Below are positions 7,087 to 63,383 of a stretch of DNA of 64,000 nucleotides, piece after piece. The stretch comes from Promethearchaeota archaeon (GTDB taxonomy: Archaea; Asgardarchaeota; Lokiarchaeia; Sigyniarchaeales; SOKP01), in assembly GCA_019058445.1 (NCBI GenBank), contig JAHPZA010000002.1, positions 96,001-160,000 of the forward strand, in the 5' to 3' direction. The translations under genes were made by a program, and so were the position numbers. A model generated the notes under the pieces. The model did no database searches and was not told the origin of the DNA. It saw nothing but the letters and a program-made list of their open reading frames with translations. Position 1 is the first letter of the stretch. Each line of letters starts with the position of its first letter.

Positions 7087-9042
7087 TTAAATTTCGCGAA
7101 AAGGAACCTCTGTTGCTAATGCATGTATTACGGATTTGTGAATTGCTCCATTTGGGCAGATTTGATAACAAACGCCACATCGTATACATCTATCCTCATC
7201 AATCTGCATCGTCTCTCTTCCGTCAATCTCTGTTCTCCTTATAGCAGGACAGCTAAGTATTCTACTACATTCATGGCAAACTTGACAGCCTGAGATATAA
7301 TAGGTGATTTCTTGTACTTTCTGCCCTTGCGCTTCAAGATCTCTGATCTGACTCATTCTCCATCTATGAGCTTGAAGTCCACATTCTCGTTTAAGAATTA
7401 TAACTTTTAATCCTTTTTCTTGAAGTGCCTCCTCAATGGATTTTGTCAATTTTTTAGGGTTATATGAATCTTCAATTCGAAGCCAGGGTACTCCTAACGC
7501 TTTGCAAATGTTTTCAATTGAGAAGCCTCGATTAATTAAGTAACGAAGTACATCATCTTGGTGACCAGTCATTGCAGTCCAAGAATTCTCGAAAATGATG
7601 AGCAACACATTAGAATTATAACCGACTGCTTCTGCCAAGGGTGCCATACCCGTATGAAAAAAGGTGGAATCGCCAATCATAGCAACTATTTTTTGATCTG
7701 ATTTGGTCGACATGCCTATGGCAGCACTTATTCCCCCTGACATGCATATTACGAGATCACTACATTCTTGCGGAGGGAAAAACGACATTACATAGCATCC
7801 AATATCTCCACAAATCACGGTATTTTCTAGCTGATTTGTGGCTTTTAATATGGAATAGAGTGTAGCTCGTTCGGGACAGCCAGCACAGAAAGTCGGAAAC
7901 CTAGCCGGAACAATCTCCTTATAAGAATTGAAATATTCGATTGCGTTCGTCATCTGTTCGCTCGGTGTTTTATCAAAAATTTTCGCTAAACTAGTAGCGA
8001 TTAATCCAGTGGAATATTCGTTATATTTTGGGAAATATTCTTGACCGATCATTTGAACATTCAATTTGTTATGATGAGCGATTTCCGACACTTTTACTTC
8101 TAAAAATGGTTCTAATTCTTCAATAATAATGACTTTTTCAAGGGAATTCAAGAAATTCGAGATCTCTTCATAATTTAAAGGATAAATCATCCCCAACTTT
8201 AAAACTGGTACATCATCAAGTCCCAATTGGTCCAATGCTTCCATGGTATAGCCAAAAGGCATTCCACTGGTAATGATTCCAATTTTATTTTCTCCCGGAA
8301 TTATTTTATTTACACCAAGTTCTAGTATGATTTCTCGAATTTTTTCAATTCTTTCATATAATCGTACGTGGTTATTTATGGCGTGAGGAGGGAGTGAATT
8401 AAACTTAGGAATGTTTCGGATAAATTCTCCTTTTGCTTTCCCCCTCTTTATTGGTCCTAATTCTACATAACCTCGGGAATGAGCGCTTCTTGTAGAGGTT
8501 CGAACTTCAAATACGGTATCATACTTTTCGGAAAGTTCAAATGCTAGTTTGGTGAAATCTTTACATTCTTGAGGTGTATGGGGTTCAAAACAAGGGAGAT
8601 GGAGCATCCAGGTGTAAAATCGTTCATTTTGCTCTTGATGAGAGCCTAAACTGCCCGGATCAGCTCCCACCAATATCACCATTGCACCAGGATTTGGGCC
8701 ATTTAAAGCAATCACGCTTAAGGCATCACTTGCTACATTTAATCCGACATGTTTCATTGGATTTAAACTTCTACATCCGGTCCAGGCAGCACCAGCACAG
8801 GCAGAAGTTGCAACCGCCTCATTTACCGCCCAATGATGTACCAAATACTCTTTTGCTTCAGGATTTTCTCTTAAGATTTGATGAAAATATTCTCCAATGT
8901 CGCTGGTGGGAGTGCCAGGATATTGAGACGCATATGATACCCCAGCCTCAAGGCATCCCCGTACTACAGCTTCATTTCCAAGCATTAATACCTTTCCTTT
9001 TTCGTCAGAAAAACGAGTATCTTTTATTGGCATGTGAATCAT
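7087..9042 (-). CDS. iorA: Indolepyruvate:ferredoxin oxidoreductase alpha subunit
   Basis: MLGNEAV, YPGTPTS, MKHVGLNVA, FCAGCP, TPP-binding GDSTFFH and C-terminal ferredoxin motifs. Confidence 0.93.
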   Translation of the reverse strand: MIHMPIKDTRFSDEKGKVLMLGNEAVVRGCLEAGVSYASQYPGTPTSDIGEYFHQILRENPEAKEYLVHHWAVNEAVATSACAGAAWTGCRSLNPMKHVGLNVASDALSVIALNGPNPGAMVILVGADPGSLGSHQEQNERFYTWMLHLPCFEPHTPQECKDFTKLAFELSEKYDTVFEVRTSTRSAHSRGYVELGPIKRGKAKGEFIRNIPKFNSLPPHAINNHVRLYERIEKIREIILELGVNKIIPGENKIGIITSGMPFGYTMEALDQLGLDDVPVLKLGMIYPLNYEEISNFLNSLEKVIIIEELEPFLEVKVSEIAHHNKLNVQMIGQEYFPKYNEYSTGLIATSLAKIFDKTPSEQMTNAIEYFNSYKEIVPARFPTFCAGCPERATLYSILKATNQLENTVICGDIGCYVMSFFPPQECSDLVICMSGGISAAIGMSTKSDQKIVAMIGDSTFFHTGMAPLAEAVGYNSNVLLIIFENSWTAMTGHQDDVLRYLINRGFSIENICKALGVPWLRIEDSYNPKKLTKSIEEALQEKGLKVIILKRECGLQAHRWRMSQIRDLEAQGQKVQEITYYISGCQVCHECSRILSCPAIRRTEIDGRETMQIDEDRCIRCGVCYQICPNGAIHKSVIHALATEVPFREI

Positions 9043-18736: not shown

Positions 18737-18874
18737 TGCGCAAGGGGGGATTTGAACCCCCGACCGTCGAGAGCTATGCTTACATAAGCATCACTTTACA
18801 CGGTGTGAGCGTTTAGCGTTTTCCATATATTTTATGTGAAAAATGTCGTTATAGCCAGGCTAAACCACTCGCGC
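18737..18874 (-). tRNA. tRNA-Val(CAC) with two non-canonical introns (18844-18813 at position 28/29; 18796-18766 at position 44/45)
   Basis: Spliced product GCGCGAG TG GTTTAGCCTGGCTATAAC G ACACG CTCACAC CGTGT AGGTC GGGGG TTCAAAT CCCCC CTTGCGC A is a 75-nt cloverleaf; both introns fold into BHB-like structures. Confidence 0.9.
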
Positions 18875-21586: not shown

Positions 21587-22774
21587 ATGAAAGTTAATCA
21601 CTGGAATTTTGACGAAGTAATTGATCGTAAGAATACGTGCTCATCAAAATGGGATGGAACAGATAGATTTTTCCAGAAAAAAAATTTATTACCTATGTGG
21701 GTGGCAGATATGGATTTTCTTTCTCCACGTCCCATCATTGATGCTATAATTCGCCGTGCCGAGCATGGTGTATTTGGGTATACCTTTTTAAGTCCTGAAT
21801 ATTATAAAGCTTTAATTAATTGGTTTCAACGGCGCCATAATTGGCCAATAGAGAAGAAATGGATATTTTCTGCTCCCGGAGTTCTTCCTGGTCTAAGTTT
21901 TTCAGTCCAAGCATTCAGTAAACCAGGAGATAAAATTATTGTACAAAATCCGGTATATACGCCATTTTACCAAATTATTAAAAATAATGCTCGTAAAAGA
22001 TTATTAAATCCCTTAAAATTATCGAATGGTCATTATGAGATGGACTTTAAAGATTTAAGGGCAAAAGCACGCCATCCCCGAGCTAAACTTATGATACTCT
22101 GTAATCCCCACAATCCGACGGGAAGGGTTTGGACAAGGGAAGAGTTAATCACCCTAGGAGAAATCTGTCTAGAAAATCAGATTTTAGTCATTGCTGATGA
22201 AATACATTGTGATTTAGTATATTCTGGATATAAATACACACCATTCGCCTCAATATCTGATGAATTTGCCCAGAATTGTATTATTTGTAATTCTCCAAGT
22301 AAGACATTTAATATACCTAGTTTAAAACTCGCAAATGTTATTATTCCAAACGCTCAATTACGAACTAAATTTAGCAGAATTAGACAGAGTCATCACATTA
22401 CCACACTCAATTGCTTTGCATCAAGTGTATTGGAAGCAGCTTATAATGAATGTGAAGAGTGGTTGGATGAACTTAAAGTATACCTCAAGGAGAATTTGGA
22501 ATTTTTAAAACATTTTATTAAAGAAAAGATTCCTGAGATTAAAGTCATTGAGCCAGAAGGGACATATTTAGTATGGCTTGATTTTCGAGGATTAGGATTT
22601 GATAGCAAAGAAATAACCAAAATTTTGTTTGATAATGCAAAAGTAGCATTATGGGAAGGGCATCTCTTTGGAAAAGGTGGCACAGGATTTGAACGAATAA
22701 ATATTGCTTGCCCTCGTTCAATTTTAAGCGAAGGACTTAATCGGATCGTTAAAGCTATAAAAGAATTTTCGTGA
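21587..22774 (+). CDS. MalY/PatB family PLP-dependent C-S lyase/aminotransferase
   Basis: PMWVADMDF, CNPHNPTGRVW, DEIH and SPSKTFN motifs. Confidence 0.92.
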   Translation: MKVNHWNFDEVIDRKNTCSSKWDGTDRFFQKKNLLPMWVADMDFLSPRPIIDAIIRRAEHGVFGYTFLSPEYYKALINWFQRRHNWPIEKKWIFSAPGVLPGLSFSVQAFSKPGDKIIVQNPVYTPFYQIIKNNARKRLLNPLKLSNGHYEMDFKDLRAKARHPRAKLMILCNPHNPTGRVWTREELITLGEICLENQILVIADEIHCDLVYSGYKYTPFASISDEFAQNCIICNSPSKTFNIPSLKLANVIIPNAQLRTKFSRIRQSHHITTLNCFASSVLEAAYNECEEWLDELKVYLKENLEFLKHFIKEKIPEIKVIEPEGTYLVWLDFRGLGFDSKEITKILFDNAKVALWEGHLFGKGGTGFERINIACPRSILSEGLNRIVKAIKEFS

Positions 22775-60772: not shown

Positions 60773-61810
60773 ATGAAAGCGGCATTTATTAAAGAACATG
60801 GTGATTTGGATAAAGTTCAAATAGGAGAAGTAGATGTACCTCAAGTTGGTCCTAATGAGGTACTTATTGAGACTAAATTTGGGGCATTAAATCATCTGGA
60901 TCTTTTTGTAATTAGAGGTTGGCCTGGATTAACCCTATCGATGCCACATGTCATTGGAGCGGATGGTAGTGGGATTATAAAGGAGGTAGGCTCAGAAATT
61001 TCAACTTTATCTCAAGGTGATCATGTTACCATTAATCCCGGACTGAGTTGCGGAAAATGCAATATGTGTCTTTCGGGTCAGCAAGTACTTTGTAAACAAT
61101 TTTCCATTTTAGGGGAAAATAAATGGGGTACATTTGCTCAATATGTTAAAATCCCAGAAATTAATGTTTTAAAGATACCAAAAGATTATCCATTTGATAA
61201 AGCTGCCGCGGCTCCTTTAACTTTTCTAACTGCTTGGAGAATGTTAACCACTCAGGGAAAAATTAAACATGATGATTTTGTATTTATCCATGGAGCAGGT
61301 GGAGGAGTATCGTCTGCTGCAATTCAAATCGCCAAATATCTAGGGGCAAAGGTTATAGCAACTACTAGTACAGTTGAAAAAATTGAAAAAGCGAAAGAAT
61401 TGGGCGCAGACCATGTTATTAATTATAAGGAAATGAAAGATTATACAAAATTTGTATATACAGAATTAACTAACAAGCAAGGGATAGATATTGTTATTGA
61501 CAATGTTGGGCAGGCAACATTTCAAACGAGTATTCAATTGTTAAGACCTGGAGGAAGATTGATAACCTGCGGAGTAACATCCGGTCCATTTACAAAAATT
61601 AACGTCACAAATATCTTTTGGAAGCATTTAGAAATTAAAGGTTCTACGATGGCTAATCAAGGTGAATTTCGGGAAGTTATGCAGTTAGTATTAGCAGGCA
61701 AATTACATCCCGTTATTGATAAAATATATACTCTTGAAAAGGTCAAAGAATCTGAACAATACTTAAGTGAGGGAAACCAATTCGGGAAAGTCTTAATAGA
61801 GGTTTCTTGA
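60773..61810 (+). CDS. Zn-binding alcohol dehydrogenase / quinone reductase (MDR family)
   Basis: Structural Zn site CGKCNMC..C, GAGGGV, LNHLD and GKVLI motifs. Confidence 0.9.
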   Translation: MKAAFIKEHGDLDKVQIGEVDVPQVGPNEVLIETKFGALNHLDLFVIRGWPGLTLSMPHVIGADGSGIIKEVGSEISTLSQGDHVTINPGLSCGKCNMCLSGQQVLCKQFSILGENKWGTFAQYVKIPEINVLKIPKDYPFDKAAAAPLTFLTAWRMLTTQGKIKHDDFVFIHGAGGGVSSAAIQIAKYLGAKVIATTSTVEKIEKAKELGADHVINYKEMKDYTKFVYTELTNKQGIDIVIDNVGQATFQTSIQLLRPGGRLITCGVTSGPFTKINVTNIFWKHLEIKGSTMANQGEFREVMQLVLAGKLHPVIDKIYTLEKVKESEQYLSEGNQFGKVLIEVS

Positions 61811-61816
61811 TTTCTT

Positions 61817-62473
61817 TTAAATTATGGACTGGTAAAATTTAAATACTTCATCAGCAGCTTGTGTATCATATCCCCAGTAGAAATGATCACATCTCTCTAG
61901 GATCTTAAAATCCTTTGGATCGTTATAAAAATCGTAATGGCTCTGAAAATTACTGTAATTGGCCACATCATCTCTATCTCCTTGAATAAACAATTTCGGT
62001 TTAGTTGATTGGGATAATTTTTTATATTTCGTACCCATAAAATCCCAGGGAAATGAAATAGAAGTATATCCTATTATCTTTTTGGAGTGATTAACTGTAG
62101 AACATCCAATAGCAGCTCCATAGGAATATCCACAGATTAAGATTTTCTCGACTTGTTTAGTATTGATTAAAAAATCGATGCACGCTTTAACATCACTTAT
62201 TTCTCCTCTTCCACTTGAATGTGAACCAGTAGATCTTCCAACGGCTCTGAAGTTAAAGCGTAAGCAAGAGATATCATTTCGCTTAAAGATATTAAAGACC
62301 GCAGAAATAACATTGTTGTACATATTTCCCCCAAATTCCACTTAACTGAGAAACTCTCAATCAATCTGAGGATGCGGGTGGCATACGAGAACTGCGGAGG
62401 ATTTATTTGAGCTTGATTCAAAATATTCTGCTTCTAGTTGAATATCATCATTAGATATGAAAATATTTCCCAT
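61817..62473 (-). CDS. Alpha/beta hydrolase (HPHP-GGxMxN family), two exons 62473-62366 and 62335-61817 separated by a 30-nt BHB-type intron; 208 aa when spliced
   Basis: Exon 1 MGNIFISNDDIQLEAEY...AVLVCHPHPQ plus exon 2 FGGNMYNN...RFNFR..GYSYG..QGDRD..CDHF. The insert contains TGA and TAA in frame. Confidence 0.85.
62336..62365 (-). other. Putative BHB-type mRNA intron
   Basis: ATTGATTGAGAGTTTCTCAGTTAAGTGGAA; 10-bp hairpin, central helix CCTC/GTGG, bulges AG^A and AA^T. Confidence 0.8.
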
Positions 62474-62522
62474 AATATTAATTAAGTATTGAGATTATAA
62501 AAAGTATATAAAAGAGAAATCG

Positions 62523-63383
62523 ATGATTATGGGCTACAATAAAATCGTCATTGAGAAAAAATTACGCGATTTTTTAGAAGAAGATTGTAACTTTATCGAT
62601 GTCAGTAGTATTAACATTCCCGAGGATGCTGAAGTTACAGCCAAAATTATCGCTAAAAGCAGTGGTTTTGTTTCTGGGCTTGGGGAACTAAAAATCTTGT
62701 TTGATATGTTGAATATAACCACAACTTTCTTAAAAAAAGATGGGCAAAAGGTGAAGAAAAGAGAAGTTGTAGTGGAATTAAAAGGAAAAGTTAAAAATAT
62801 CCTATTAGGAGAAAGAGTTGGTCTTAATCTCGTTACTCATATGAGTGCCATTACTACAACAACCAGAAAATTTGTTAAAATTATTAAAGAGTCAGGGAAA
62901 AAAGTTAAAATAGCATGTACACGAAAAACATTGCCCGGAATTCGAATTTTTGAAAAAAAAGCAGTGACTTTAGGTGGTGGTGATCCCCATCGATTTTCAT
63001 TGGATGATATGATTTTGTTAAAAGATACTCATTTAAGATATTACAAAGGTGACATTGAAATGCTACTTAGAGACGTGAAGGAGACTGCTAGCTTTTCCAA
63101 AAAAATTGAAATCGAGGTTGAAAAACCTAATGATGCTTTAATCGCAGCACAAAATGGAGTCGATATTATTATGCTAGATAATATGTCTCCTGATCAGGTT
63201 GAAGATGTTATAAGGTTACTAAAAGAGCACAATTTACGAGATGATGTTATAATAGAAATTTCTGGAGGGATTAATGAAGAGAATATCGTCGATTATCTAA
63301 TCTCTTCACCTGATATCATTAGCACAAGTGATTTAACCCAATTTCCCTCAGAAAAGGTGGACTTATCATTGCGATTCGATTAA
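62523..63383 (+). CDS. nadC: Nicotinate-nucleotide diphosphorylase (quinolinate phosphoribosyltransferase)
   Basis: TRKTLPG, HRFSLDD.ILLKDTH, IEIEV, IMLDN and SGGI motifs. Confidence 0.95.
   Translation: MIMGYNKIVIEKKLRDFLEEDCNFIDVSSINIPEDAEVTAKIIAKSSGFVSGLGELKILFDMLNITTTFLKKDGQKVKKREVVVELKGKVKNILLGERVGLNLVTHMSAITTTTRKFVKIIKESGKKVKIACTRKTLPGIRIFEKKAVTLGGGDPHRFSLDDMILLKDTHLRYYKGDIEMLLRDVKETASFSKKIEIEVEKPNDALIAAQNGVDIIMLDNMSPDQVEDVIRLLKEHNLRDDVIIEISGGINEENIVDYLISSPDIISTSDLTQFPSEKVDLSLRFD

What the first reader, a model, noticed from the sequence alone, without database searches (positions are those of the whole stretch)
62336..62365. BHB-type intron inside a protein-coding gene (alpha/beta hydrolase) of an Asgard archaeon
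Seen: an ATG at 62473 opens 36 codons ending in ...VCHPHPQ. A 30-nt insert with two in-frame stops (ATT GAT TGA GAG TTT CTC AGT TAA GTG GAA) follows, then FGGNMYNN resumes in the same frame. HPHPxxGGxMxN is a contiguous family motif. The insert folds as central helix CCTC/GTGG (3 of 4 pairs, U-U mismatch), bulge AGA, hairpin TTGATTGAGA/TCTCAGTTAA (10 bp, loop GTT), bulge AAT. Established: the archaeal tRNA splicing endonuclease cuts after the second nucleotide of each 3-nt bulge. Applying that rule gives exactly CAG|TTT, restoring HPHPQFGGNM and a 208-aa protein with an intact GYSYG...D...H triad. The crenarchaeal cbf5 gene is the well-known archaeal mRNA-intron precedent. Inference: this lineage splices ordinary mRNAs with EndA/RtcB, which matters for the origin of eukaryotic mRNA splicing, and gene callers truncate such genes.
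Basis: partly seen in the sequence, partly recalled or inferred. Interest (0 to 1): 0.95.

Follow-up and report, generated by a model that had tools for sequence, protein, structure and literature searches.

The report
tRNA-type mini-intron in Asgard hydrolase gene
A 30-base hairpin insert with two stop codons splits an otherwise intact alpha/beta-hydrolase gene of a Loki-type Asgard archaeon; its shape, its relatives and the codons around it indicate that the tRNA-splicing enzymes cut it out of the mRNA, which is documented in archaea for only one other protein gene (cbf5).

Summary
On the minus strand, exon 1 (62473-62366, 36 codons ending VCHPHPQ) is followed by a 30-nt insert (62365-62336, two in-frame stops) and exon 2 (62335-61817).

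Removing the insert gives a 208-aa protein. Its junction, HPHPQFGGNM, is contiguous in more than 90 homologues and in solved structures.

[quoted passage not shown] The standard cut rule removes exactly these 30 nt.

Comparison with relatives carries most of the weight:
- 20 unique related Promethearchaeota sequences (of 108) carry inserts of 30, 32, 33 or 34 nt at the same site.
- Both exons are intact in all of them, and the BHB rule restores the frame in every case.
- The helices covary.
- Synonymous codons next to the intron are fixed to the pairing versions: Gly GGG in 20/20 intron-bearing genes against 24/88 intron-less ones.

EndA and RtcB are encoded in the genome. Eight further genes there (EF-2-like, YchF-like, CODH, Sir2 and others) carry 29-32-nt BHB inserts with continuous Pfam matches across the cut.

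No RNA data were available, so splicing is inferred and not shown. I found no paper reporting this in Asgard archaea. Earlier notes of this scan describe the same thing in other Asgard genomes.

Confidence is 0.88.

The parts
62366..62473 (-). Exon 1: ATG plus 35 codons, ending ...AVLVCHPHPQ. It encodes the N-terminal strands up to the oxyanion-loop motif.
   Evidence: It is homologous to the N-termini of 208-213-aa relatives. dN/dS is about 0.24-0.30 against near relatives. The region aligns to residues 9-44 of PDB 3trd through homologue P0003.
62336..62365 (-). 30-nt BHB mini-intron (type A), with in-frame TGA and TAA. Predicted cuts fall after 62366 and after 62336.
   Evidence: It is single-copy in the genome. 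Homologous 30-nt introns occur in L003, L004/L091, L031 and L045/L046.
61817..62335 (-). Exon 2: FGGNMYNN... to the stop codon (61817-61819). It carries GYSYG, GDRDD and CDHFY.
   Evidence: Pfam Abhydrolase_11 7.2e-09, profile positions 12-166. Database gene calls start only at the internal Met, giving 168 aa.
62368..62371 (-). Central helix H, 5' strand CCUC (exon 1, Pro-Gln codons).
   Evidence: Pairs with GUGG at 62338-62341: C-G, C-G, U.U, C-G. The third pair is U-A or U-G in L004, L031 and L045.
62338..62341 (-). Central helix H, 3' strand GUGG (intron).
62365..62367 (-). 5' bulge AGA. Predicted cut AG^A, between 62366 and 62365.
   Evidence: Cut rule applied. The same rule reproduces ARAGORN's intron boundaries in tRNA-Ala, tRNA-Tyr and tRNA-Thr of this genome, and gives the Pfam continuity 457|458 in the CODH gene.
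62335..62337 (-). 3' bulge AAU. Predicted cut AA^U, between 62336 and 62335.
62342..62364 (-). Inner helix h': 10 bp (UUGAUUGAGA with UCUCAGUUAA) and loop GUU.
   Evidence: There are compensatory changes at pairs 2 and 7 among type A copies, and 96% of cells are paired.
62373..62378 (-). Outer helix h, 5' strand (His-Pro-His codons, CCCGCA).
   Evidence: Pairs with UGGGGG at 62328-62333, with one G.G mismatch and a U.U next to H. The synonymous sites here are constrained in intron-bearing genes only.
62328..62333 (-). Outer helix h, 3' strand (Phe-Gly-Gly codons, UGGGGG).
   Evidence: Gly1 is GGG in 20/20 intron-bearing sequences against 24/88 intron-less ones.

Best explanation
The 30 nt at 62365-62336 are an archaeal bulge-helix-bulge (BHB) intron inside the mRNA of an alpha/beta-hydrolase gene (Abhydrolase_11-like, 3trd/Atu1826-like).

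Proposed mechanism:
1. The gene is transcribed from the ATG at 62473.
2. Exon codons (CAC CCN CAU CCU ... UUU GGG GG) pair with each other and with the 3' end of the intron. This forms outer helix, 3-nt bulge, 4-bp helix, 3-nt bulge and a 10-bp intron hairpin.
3. The splicing endonuclease EndA cuts after the second nucleotide of each bulge (CAG^A and AA^U).
4. RtcB ligates the exons. The product reads HPHPQ-FGGNM and encodes a 208-aa enzyme.

Shown here:
- the sequence, the fold and the frame restoration
- conservation of the structure across divergent intron copies
- intact exons under purifying selection
- codon constraints specific to intron-bearing genes
- presence of EndA and RtcB
- the same kind of insert in at least 8 other genes of this genome

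Inferred, not shown: that cleavage and ligation actually occur on this transcript.
For: 1. Junction. 103 intron-less loci have exactly 6 nt between HPHP and GG. Full-length homologues read HPHPQ[FY]GGNM. PDB 3trd, 2i3d and 2fuk keep the motif contiguous.

2. Same site, different inserts. 16 unique intron-plus-flank sequences (20 unique loci) carry 30-, 32-, 33- or 34-nt inserts. In each, the best BHB register gives in-frame HPHPQ[FYM]GG. Every one has an ATG-initiated exon 1 and an intact exon 2, and the spliced proteins are 208-213 aa. Lengths that are not multiples of 3 rule out read-through.

3. Unconstrained local scan. The expected cut pair is the top BHB hit in 14 of 20 sequences.

4. 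Structure conservation. 93% of cells are paired in type A and 91.4% in type B, against at most 64% and 77% when partners are slid. The covariation score is reached by 11/500 and 0/500 shuffles. There are compensatory changes in the inner helix, and an A-U to G-C exchange between two exon wobble positions.

5. Exon synonymous sites, intron-bearing against intron-less:
- Gly GGG 20/20 vs 24/88
- Pro CCT 20/20 vs 47/88
- His CAC 19/20 vs 39/88
- wobble complementarity 16/20 vs 28/88

6. Selection. dN/dS is about 0.24-0.30 for exon 1 and 0.07-0.12 for exon 2 against near relatives.

7. Machinery. The EndA catalytic subunit (202 aa) and RtcB are present. Asgard EndA is reported as (alpha-beta)2 with the L1 loop, which gives broad substrate range (PMC5829648).

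8. Same genome. 29-32-nt BHB inserts occur in EF-2-like, YchF-like, octopine-DH-like, Prismane/CODH (Pfam profile 457|458), SIR2 (103|108), BKACE, GH38 and flavin-reductase genes.

9. Chance. 13 of 200,000 shuffles reach the observed fold.

10. The insert is unique in the genome, so it is not a repeat.
Against: - No RNA evidence exists for this locus or its relatives.
- This copy's BHB is imperfect. There is a U.U in the 4-bp helix (U.C in L003), and the outer helix has U.U and G.G mismatches.
- RNAalifold prefers a 5-bp core (adding U-A), which would misplace the 3' cut by one nucleotide. The MFE z-score is only -1.46.
- My genome-wide ORF-fusion screen gave no clean excess of the true cut rule over cuts shifted by 1 nt. 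The extra cases therefore rest on individual Pfam continuity, not on statistics.
- The intron-bearing sequences are related to one another, so the counts overstate independence.
Confidence: 0.88

Rival explanations
1. The gene is a pseudogene. A small hairpin-forming insertion destroyed the hydrolase gene, and the BHB-like fold is coincidental.
For: The insert carries two in-frame stops. This copy's BHB has mismatches. Its terminal branch is somewhat long, 0.12.
Against: - 20 unique intron-bearing loci keep both exons intact, with ATG starts.
- dN/dS is far below 1 in both exons.
- The helices covary.
- Synonymous exon sites are fixed to the pairing codons only when the insert is present.
- Single-copy or essential-type genes (EF-2-like, and eS26 as the only match in the genome) are interrupted in the same way.
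Confidence: 0.04
2. The transcript is not spliced. The cell makes a truncated 168-aa enzyme from the internal Met (GGNM), possibly with a separate 38-aa N-terminal peptide, as a split protein.
For: Gene callers predict exactly this 168-aa product in 24 database entries. An ATG lies 4 codons into exon 2.
Against: - The missing 40 residues align to the N-terminal strands of solved homologues, and the break lies inside the conserved HPHPxxGG loop.
- This reading gives no reason for BHB covariation, for the exon wobble constraints, or for keeping exon 1 open and under selection when inserts shift the frame (32 and 34 nt).
Confidence: 0.04
3. Ribosomes hop over the insert by programmed translational bypassing, as in phage T4 gene 60.
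For: A stop codon lies shortly after the break, and the gap contains a stable hairpin.
Against: There are no matching take-off and landing codons. The codon before the gap is CAG or CAA, while the triplet before the resumption is GAA, AAA, AAG, ACG or AUA. The conserved features are those of a BHB (two 3-nt bulges across a 4-bp helix), not of a bypass element. The organism has a heavily used EndA system: ARAGORN finds only 23 tRNAs, 19 of them with introns.
Confidence: 0.01
4. The insert is an assembly or sequencing artefact.
For: None beyond the fact that this genome is a metagenome-assembled genome (MAG).
Against: Homologous inserts occur at the same site in independent assemblies from different projects: JGI metagenomes, several NCBI MAG series and GTDB representatives.
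Confidence: 0.01

Closest known systems
cbf5 pre-mRNA intron of Crenarchaeota (Aeropyrum, Sulfolobales, Desulfurococcales; Watanabe 2002; Yoshinari 2006; Yokobori 2009, PMC2738675)
   Same: It is a short BHB intron inside a protein-coding gene. It is removed by the tRNA splicing endonuclease of the hetero-oligomeric, broad-specificity type. Its distribution is patchy, with lineage-specific loss, and it causes gene-prediction errors.
   Different: The gene is different (a metabolic alpha/beta hydrolase, not an RNA-modification enzyme), and so is the phylum (Promethearchaeota, Asgard). Here the intron is one of at least nine in a single genome. Two intron sequence families occupy the site in registers 1 nt apart. 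Splicing of cbf5 was shown by cDNA, whereas here it is inferred.
BHB introns of archaeal tRNA and rRNA genes, including the heavily interrupted tRNA genes of Asgard archaea (PMC11291895; bioRxiv 10.64898/2026.10.13.758758)
   Same: The motif is the same: a 4-bp helix, two 3-nt bulges and a cut inside each bulge. [quoted passage not shown] Gains and losses recur.
   Different: The host RNA is an mRNA. The exon half of the motif must therefore be built from codons, and only synonymous sites are free. Those papers do not report protein-gene introns.
Unconventional HAC1/XBP1 mRNA splicing (IRE1 nuclease plus tRNA ligase/RtcB) in eukaryotes
   Same: It is spliceosome-independent. A protein endonuclease cuts an mRNA at paired stem-loop sites, and RtcB-type ligation restores a reading frame.
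   Different: The nuclease is different (IRE1, not EndA/TSEN), and so is the recognition motif. That system is regulatory and stress-induced. Nothing here indicates regulation. This comparison rests on general knowledge and was not tested here.
PDB 3trd / 2i3d (Atu1826) / 2fuk (XC6422) alpha/beta hydrolases; Pfam PF20408 Abhydrolase_11
   Same: They share the host protein's fold, the HPHPxxGGxMxN loop and the GxSxG, D and H residues.
   Different: These bacterial genes are uninterrupted. The substrate of the family is unknown.

Membership tests
Archaeal BHB (EndA-type) intron | [quoted passage not shown] | tested here: met
   This copy has CCUC/GUGG with one U.U mismatch and bulges AGA and AAU. 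Relatives have 4/4 pairs: L004 CCUC/GAGG, and all 11 type B copies UCCU/GGGA.
Archaeal BHB (EndA-type) intron | Flanking helices: h' (within the intron) and h (exon with exon). | tested here: met
   h' is 10 bp. h is 5 of 6 pairs after a U.U mismatch. h is relaxed in this copy and better in relatives.
Archaeal BHB (EndA-type) intron | Cutting after the second nucleotide of each bulge yields a functional mature RNA. | tested here: met
   The rule restores HPHPQ[FYM]GG in frame for inserts of 30, 32, 33 and 34 nt. The same rule reproduces the intron boundaries of tRNA-Ala, tRNA-Tyr and tRNA-Thr and the Pfam continuity in 8 other genes.
Archaeal BHB (EndA-type) intron | Orthologues lacking the insert at precisely the same position. 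| tested here: met
   103 loci lack the insert, including same-genus genomes G007, G009, G006, G004, G005 and G001.
Archaeal BHB (EndA-type) intron | The structure is maintained by selection (covariation). | tested here: met
   The sequences are related, so the shuffle counts are not probabilities.
Archaeal BHB (EndA-type) intron | Splicing endonuclease and RtcB ligase are encoded by the host. | tested here: met
   PF01974 scores 68 bits on C9 (a 202-aa ORF). PF01139 scores 574 bits on C1. A beta subunit was not looked for.
Archaeal BHB (EndA-type) intron | Excision and exon ligation observed at the RNA level (spliced junction, circular or linear intron). | not testable with these tools
   No RNA run was listed for this stretch. 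No full-length database protein is at least 95% identical to a spliced product of an intron-bearing locus.
Alpha/beta hydrolase, Abhydrolase_11-like (3trd/Atu1826 group) | Pfam match above the curated cut-off. | tested here: met
   Exon 2 alone scores 36.1 bits against PF20408, cut-off 27.
Alpha/beta hydrolase, Abhydrolase_11-like (3trd/Atu1826 group) | Nucleophile elbow GxSxG plus the acid and His residues. | tested here: met
   GYSYG, GDRDD and CDHFY are present. The same positions are conserved in the P0003-3trd alignment. Catalytic activity was not tested.
Programmed translational bypass (T4 gene 60 type) | Identical take-off and landing codons flanking the gap. | tested here: not met
   CAG or CAA before the gap, against GAA, AAA, AAG, ACG or AUA before the resumption.

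The most novel reading that the evidence does not exclude
This intron belongs to a genome-wide, evolving population of roughly 30-nt BHB mini-introns in ordinary protein genes of Promethearchaeota. On this reading, mRNA splicing by EndA/RtcB is a routine step of gene expression in these relatives of eukaryotes. Introns are repeatedly and precisely lost, and possibly gained or exchanged, at sites where codons can build the exon half of the motif. The exons adapt their synonymous codons to the splicing machinery.
Probability: 0.55. Interest if true: 0.93.

Novelty: new member of a known kind. Interest (0 to 1): 0.85.

Why it matters
Protein-gene introns removed by the tRNA-splicing enzymes have been documented in archaea only for cbf5 of Crenarchaeota. 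In seven full-text searches I found nothing on Asgard protein genes.

If it holds, three things follow.

1. Asgard archaea must splice mRNAs of ordinary metabolic and housekeeping genes before translation. In these prokaryotes, transcription and translation then cannot be fully coupled for such genes.
2. Standard gene callers systematically truncate or split these genes. 24 of the 120 listed homologues of this one gene are truncated in public databases. This biases metabolic reconstructions and counts of eukaryote-signature proteins for Asgard MAGs.
3. The exon codon constraints give a clean natural example of selection on synonymous sites for an RNA-processing structure.

The link to spliceosomal introns is only indirect.

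Tried and rejected
- **RNA evidence.** The look-up of sequencing runs (kind rna) listed no holder, so read laying could not be used.
- **Spliced forms in databases.** I looked for full-length database proteins nearly identical to spliced products of intron-bearing loci, which would have pointed to RNA-derived contigs. None reached 95% identity. An exact look-up of the 208-aa spliced protein was left out, because that sequence has no reference and would have had to be typed.
- **Genome-wide ORF-fusion screen.** I combined a BHB geometry scan with 'both flanks open, frame restored' and compared it with cuts shifted by 1 nt.
  - There was no clean excess. The background comes from same-strand gene junctions and from short open wrong-frame stretches. 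The shifted controls are themselves contaminated by real introns.
  - A codon-usage filter did not help, and it even rejected this locus.
  - Ranking by structure score and then checking by Pfam did work. At high score, 8 of 12 passes are exactly 30 nt.
- **False positives in this window.** Two screen hits (8793-8820 minus, 21849-21877 plus) lie in continuous ORFs.
- **ARAGORN as a calibration of the cut rule.** Most of its calls in this genome are unreliable. Only tRNA-Ala, tRNA-Tyr and tRNA-Thr were usable.
- **RNAalifold on type B.** It gave a poorly defined core, because MAFFT misaligns loops of unequal length. I therefore counted pairs on a stated structure instead.
- **Repeat or mobile element.** A blastn-short search of the intron against the genome found only the intron itself.
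- **Look-alike stretches in other windows of this scan.** None were found.

Full report
**1. What is in the sequence**

The gene lies on the minus strand.
- An ATG at 62473 opens 36 codons ending ...SSAVLVCHPHPQ. The last base of exon 1 is 62366.
- The next 30 nt (62365-62336) contain in-frame TGA and TAA.
- From 62335 the same frame reads FGGNMYNNVISAV... to a stop at 61817.
- Joining 62366 to 62335 gives a 208-aa protein with GYSYG, GDRDD and CDHFY.
- Exon 2 alone matches Pfam Abhydrolase_11, Abhydrolase_1 and Hydrolase_4, starting at profile position 12.

The neighbours are ordinary genes: a zinc-type alcohol dehydrogenase (60773-61810, plus strand), a divergently transcribed quinolinate phosphoribosyltransferase (62523-63383, plus strand) and a NikR-like regulator.

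**2. The junction is real**

A protein search with exon 2 found 399 homologues, mostly from Promethearchaeota MAGs.
- The full-length ones (208-216 aa) read ...CHPHPQ[FY]GGNM... without interruption.
- The closest solved structures (3trd, 2i3d, 2fuk) also keep CHPHPxxGGxMxN contiguous. Their alignment to homologue P0003 begins at residue 7, so exon 1 encodes an integral part of the fold.
- 24 of the 120 listed homologues are 168-170 aa and begin at the Met of GGNM. One of them is this window's own gene call (P0001). These are truncated predictions.

**3. The fold**

- central helix CCUC/GUGG with one U.U
- bulges AGA and AAU
- a 10-bp hairpin with loop GUU
- an exon-exon outer helix, CCCGCA with UGGGGG, with one G.G and an adjacent U.U

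Cutting after the second bulge nucleotide on each strand removes exactly the 30 nt.

The plain MFE fold contains the hairpin and the outer helix, but draws the core as UCC/GGA. Its z-score is only -1.46.

At the fixed frame-restoring cut pair, 13 of 200,000 shuffles of the insert reach at least 3 central pairs and a 10-bp inner helix.

**4. Relatives**

I collected 137 loci from same-genus and same-family genomes, JGI metagenomes and GTDB genomes.
- 103 loci have exactly 6 nt between HPHP and GG.
- More than 20 loci carry an insert at that point: 20 unique loci, or 16 unique intron-plus-flank sequences. The insert lengths are 30, 32, 33 and 34 nt.
- Every one has an ATG-initiated exon 1 (31-35 codons to HPHP) and an intact exon 2. 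The spliced proteins are 208-213 aa.

There are two intron sequence families.

| Family | Loci | Central helix | Cuts |
|---|---|---|---|
| Type A | this window, L003, L004/L091, L031, L045/L046 | CCUC/GNGG | CAR^A ... AA^U |
| Type B | L007, L033, L034, L036, L048/49/97, L056/57, L089/94, L096, L099, L100, L113 | UCCU/GGGA | CA^A ... AN^R (one nt upstream) |

In type B, the third base of the Gln codon comes from the 3' bulge. It is a purine in all 11 copies, so Gln is kept.

For every insert length, the BHB rule gives in-frame HPHPQ[FYM]GG. In a scan of all cut pairs within about 150 nt, the expected pair is the top hit in 14 of 20 sequences. This window's copy ranks third.

**5. Selection on the structure**

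Pair counts:

| Measure | Type A | Type B |
|---|---|---|
| Cells paired | 93% | 91.4% |
| Cells paired with partners slid (maximum) | 64% | 77% |
| Shuffles reaching the covariation score | 11/500 | 0/500 |

- Compensatory changes occur in the inner helix: U-A to A-U, U-A to C-G, G-C to A-U and G-C to C-G.
- One outer-helix pair is formed by two exon wobble positions, the Pro codon third base and the Phe/Tyr codon third base. It changes between A-U and G-C.

Exon codon choice differs between intron-bearing and intron-less genes:

| Site | Intron-bearing | Intron-less |
|---|---|---|
| Gly1 = GGG | 20/20 | 24/88 |
| Pro2 = CCT | 20/20 | 47/88 |
| His1 = CAC | 19/20 | 39/88 |
| Wobble pair complementary | 16/20 | 28/88 |

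The sequences are related to one another, so these are not independent trials. However, the intron-bearing genes fall in several separate clades.

dN/dS against near relatives is 0.24-0.30 for exon 1 and 0.07-0.12 for exon 2.

**6. Distribution**

On the protein tree, intron presence needs about 9 changes. Well-supported branches force at least 5.

Close pairs with and without the intron exist: L094 and L041, L045 and L052, and the type A clade next to intron-less L002/L032.

Within each family, the inner-stem sequences resemble one another, although pairing to the exons does not constrain them. This favours inheritance with repeated precise loss, or exchange, over many independent insertions. 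The direction of change could not be established.

**7. Machinery and context**

- The genome encodes an EndA catalytic subunit (202 aa) and RtcB.
- Asgard EndA has been classified as (alpha-beta)2 with the L1 loop. This is the broad-specificity type also found in the Crenarchaeota that splice cbf5 (PMC5829648).
- ARAGORN finds only 23 tRNAs in this 4.6-Mb genome, 19 of them with introns. This fits the heavily interrupted tRNA genes reported for Asgard archaea.
- The cut rule reproduces ARAGORN's boundaries in tRNA-Ala, tRNA-Tyr and tRNA-Thr.

**8. Other protein genes in the same genome**

A geometry scan ranked by structure, followed by Pfam searches on the two exons, gave eight further cases.

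| Gene (Pfam family) | Place | Insert | Profile continuity |
|---|---|---|---|
| EF-2-like GTPase (GTP_EFTU) | C10:684116-684145 | 30 nt | 2-33 / 48-187 |
| Obg/YchF-like GTPase | C6:1272337-1272367 | 31 nt | P-loop split |
| Octopine_DH-like | C4:159314-159342 | 29 nt | not measured (exon 1 too short for Pfam) |
| Prismane/CODH | C6:396802-396833 | 32 nt | ...457 / 458... |
| SIR2 | C9:775863-775892 | 30 nt | ...103 / 108... |
| BKACE | C3:396671-396701 | 31 nt | exon 2 from 18 |
| GH38 | C9:6926-6955 | 30 nt | exon 2 from 14 |
| Flavin_Reduct | C10:5858-5887 | 30 nt | exon 2 from 35 |

The only eS26 match in the genome has two stops inside it.

The statistical version of this screen, true cut against cuts shifted by 1 nt, gave no clean excess. 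At high structure score, 8 of 12 passes are exactly 30 nt.

**9. Rivals**

- Pseudogene, split protein and artefact are each contradicted by the intact, selected exons, by the frame-shifting insert lengths, by the constraints on RNA pairing and by the independent assemblies.
- Translational bypass fails for lack of matching take-off and landing codons.

**10. What is known**

- The held literature documents mRNA BHB introns only for crenarchaeal cbf5 (PMC2738675).
- Papers on Asgard introns treat tRNA genes only.
- Seven searches found no report of protein-gene BHB introns in Asgard archaea.
- Earlier notes of this scan describe the same phenomenon in this genome and in other Asgard genomes. 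Two of them claim RNA-derived contigs lacking the intron in a Jordarchaeum. I did not check those claims.

**11. Verdict**

This is a real feature, very probably a spliced BHB intron (confidence 0.88). It is a new member of the cbf5-type class and sits in a lineage where such introns appear to be common. Direct RNA evidence is still missing.

Noticed in passing
L138:2217-2246 (G000 C10:684116-684145, minus strand): A 30-nt BHB insert splits an EF-2-like translational GTPase gene of 61 + 689 codons. GTP_EFTU profile positions 2-33 lie in exon 1 and 48-187 in exon 2.
   Followed up: partly
L148:236-267 (G000 C6:396802-396833, minus strand): A 32-nt BHB insert lies in a Prismane/CO-dehydrogenase family gene. 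The Pfam profile ends at 457 in exon 1 and resumes at 458 in exon 2.
   Followed up: partly
L139:238-268, L140:215-243, L150:442-471, L147:85-115, L149:71-100, L151:158-187: Further 29-31-nt BHB inserts in YchF/Obg-like GTPase, octopine-DH-like, SIR2, BKACE, GH38 and flavin-reductase-like genes of the same genome. In each, exon 2 starts partway into the Pfam profile.
   Followed up: partly
L144:1501-1722 (G000 C6:441732-441953, minus strand): The only ribosomal protein eS26 match in the genome has two stops inside it, and the frame changes after ...CGRFVAR. This is consistent with an insert of about 29 nt. My simple BHB scorer did not find a clean motif there.
   Followed up: partly
window 18737-18874 (minus strand): Rfam finds a tRNA spread over 138 nt (35.3 bits), while ARAGORN reports no tRNA in the window. 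It is probably a tRNA gene with one or more non-canonical introns.
   Followed up: no
G000 C1:204546-204575 (minus strand): A high-scoring 30-nt BHB candidate near a contig end, in sequence that translates to nothing sensible. It is possibly an rRNA mini-intron.
   Followed up: no
whole genome G000: ARAGORN calls only 23 tRNAs in a 4.6-Mb genome that is 92% complete, 19 of them with introns and several with implausible identities (Pyl, SeC, Stop). Most tRNA genes are evidently too interrupted for standard finders.
   Followed up: no
window 62474-62522: The 49-nt spacer between the hydrolase ATG (62473, minus strand) and the divergent nadC ATG (62523, plus strand) is AT-rich, with TATA-like runs (TTTATATA, TTTTTATAA) about 30-40 nt upstream of the hydrolase start. 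This fits exon 1 being the true 5' end of the gene. It was read by eye and not tested.
   Followed up: no
L033, L034, L036, L089/L094 (loci): In type B introns, the last base of the Gln codon is supplied by the third nucleotide of the 3' bulge. It is A or G in all 11 copies, so CAA/CAG (Gln) is preserved while the neighbouring bulge bases vary.
   Followed up: yes
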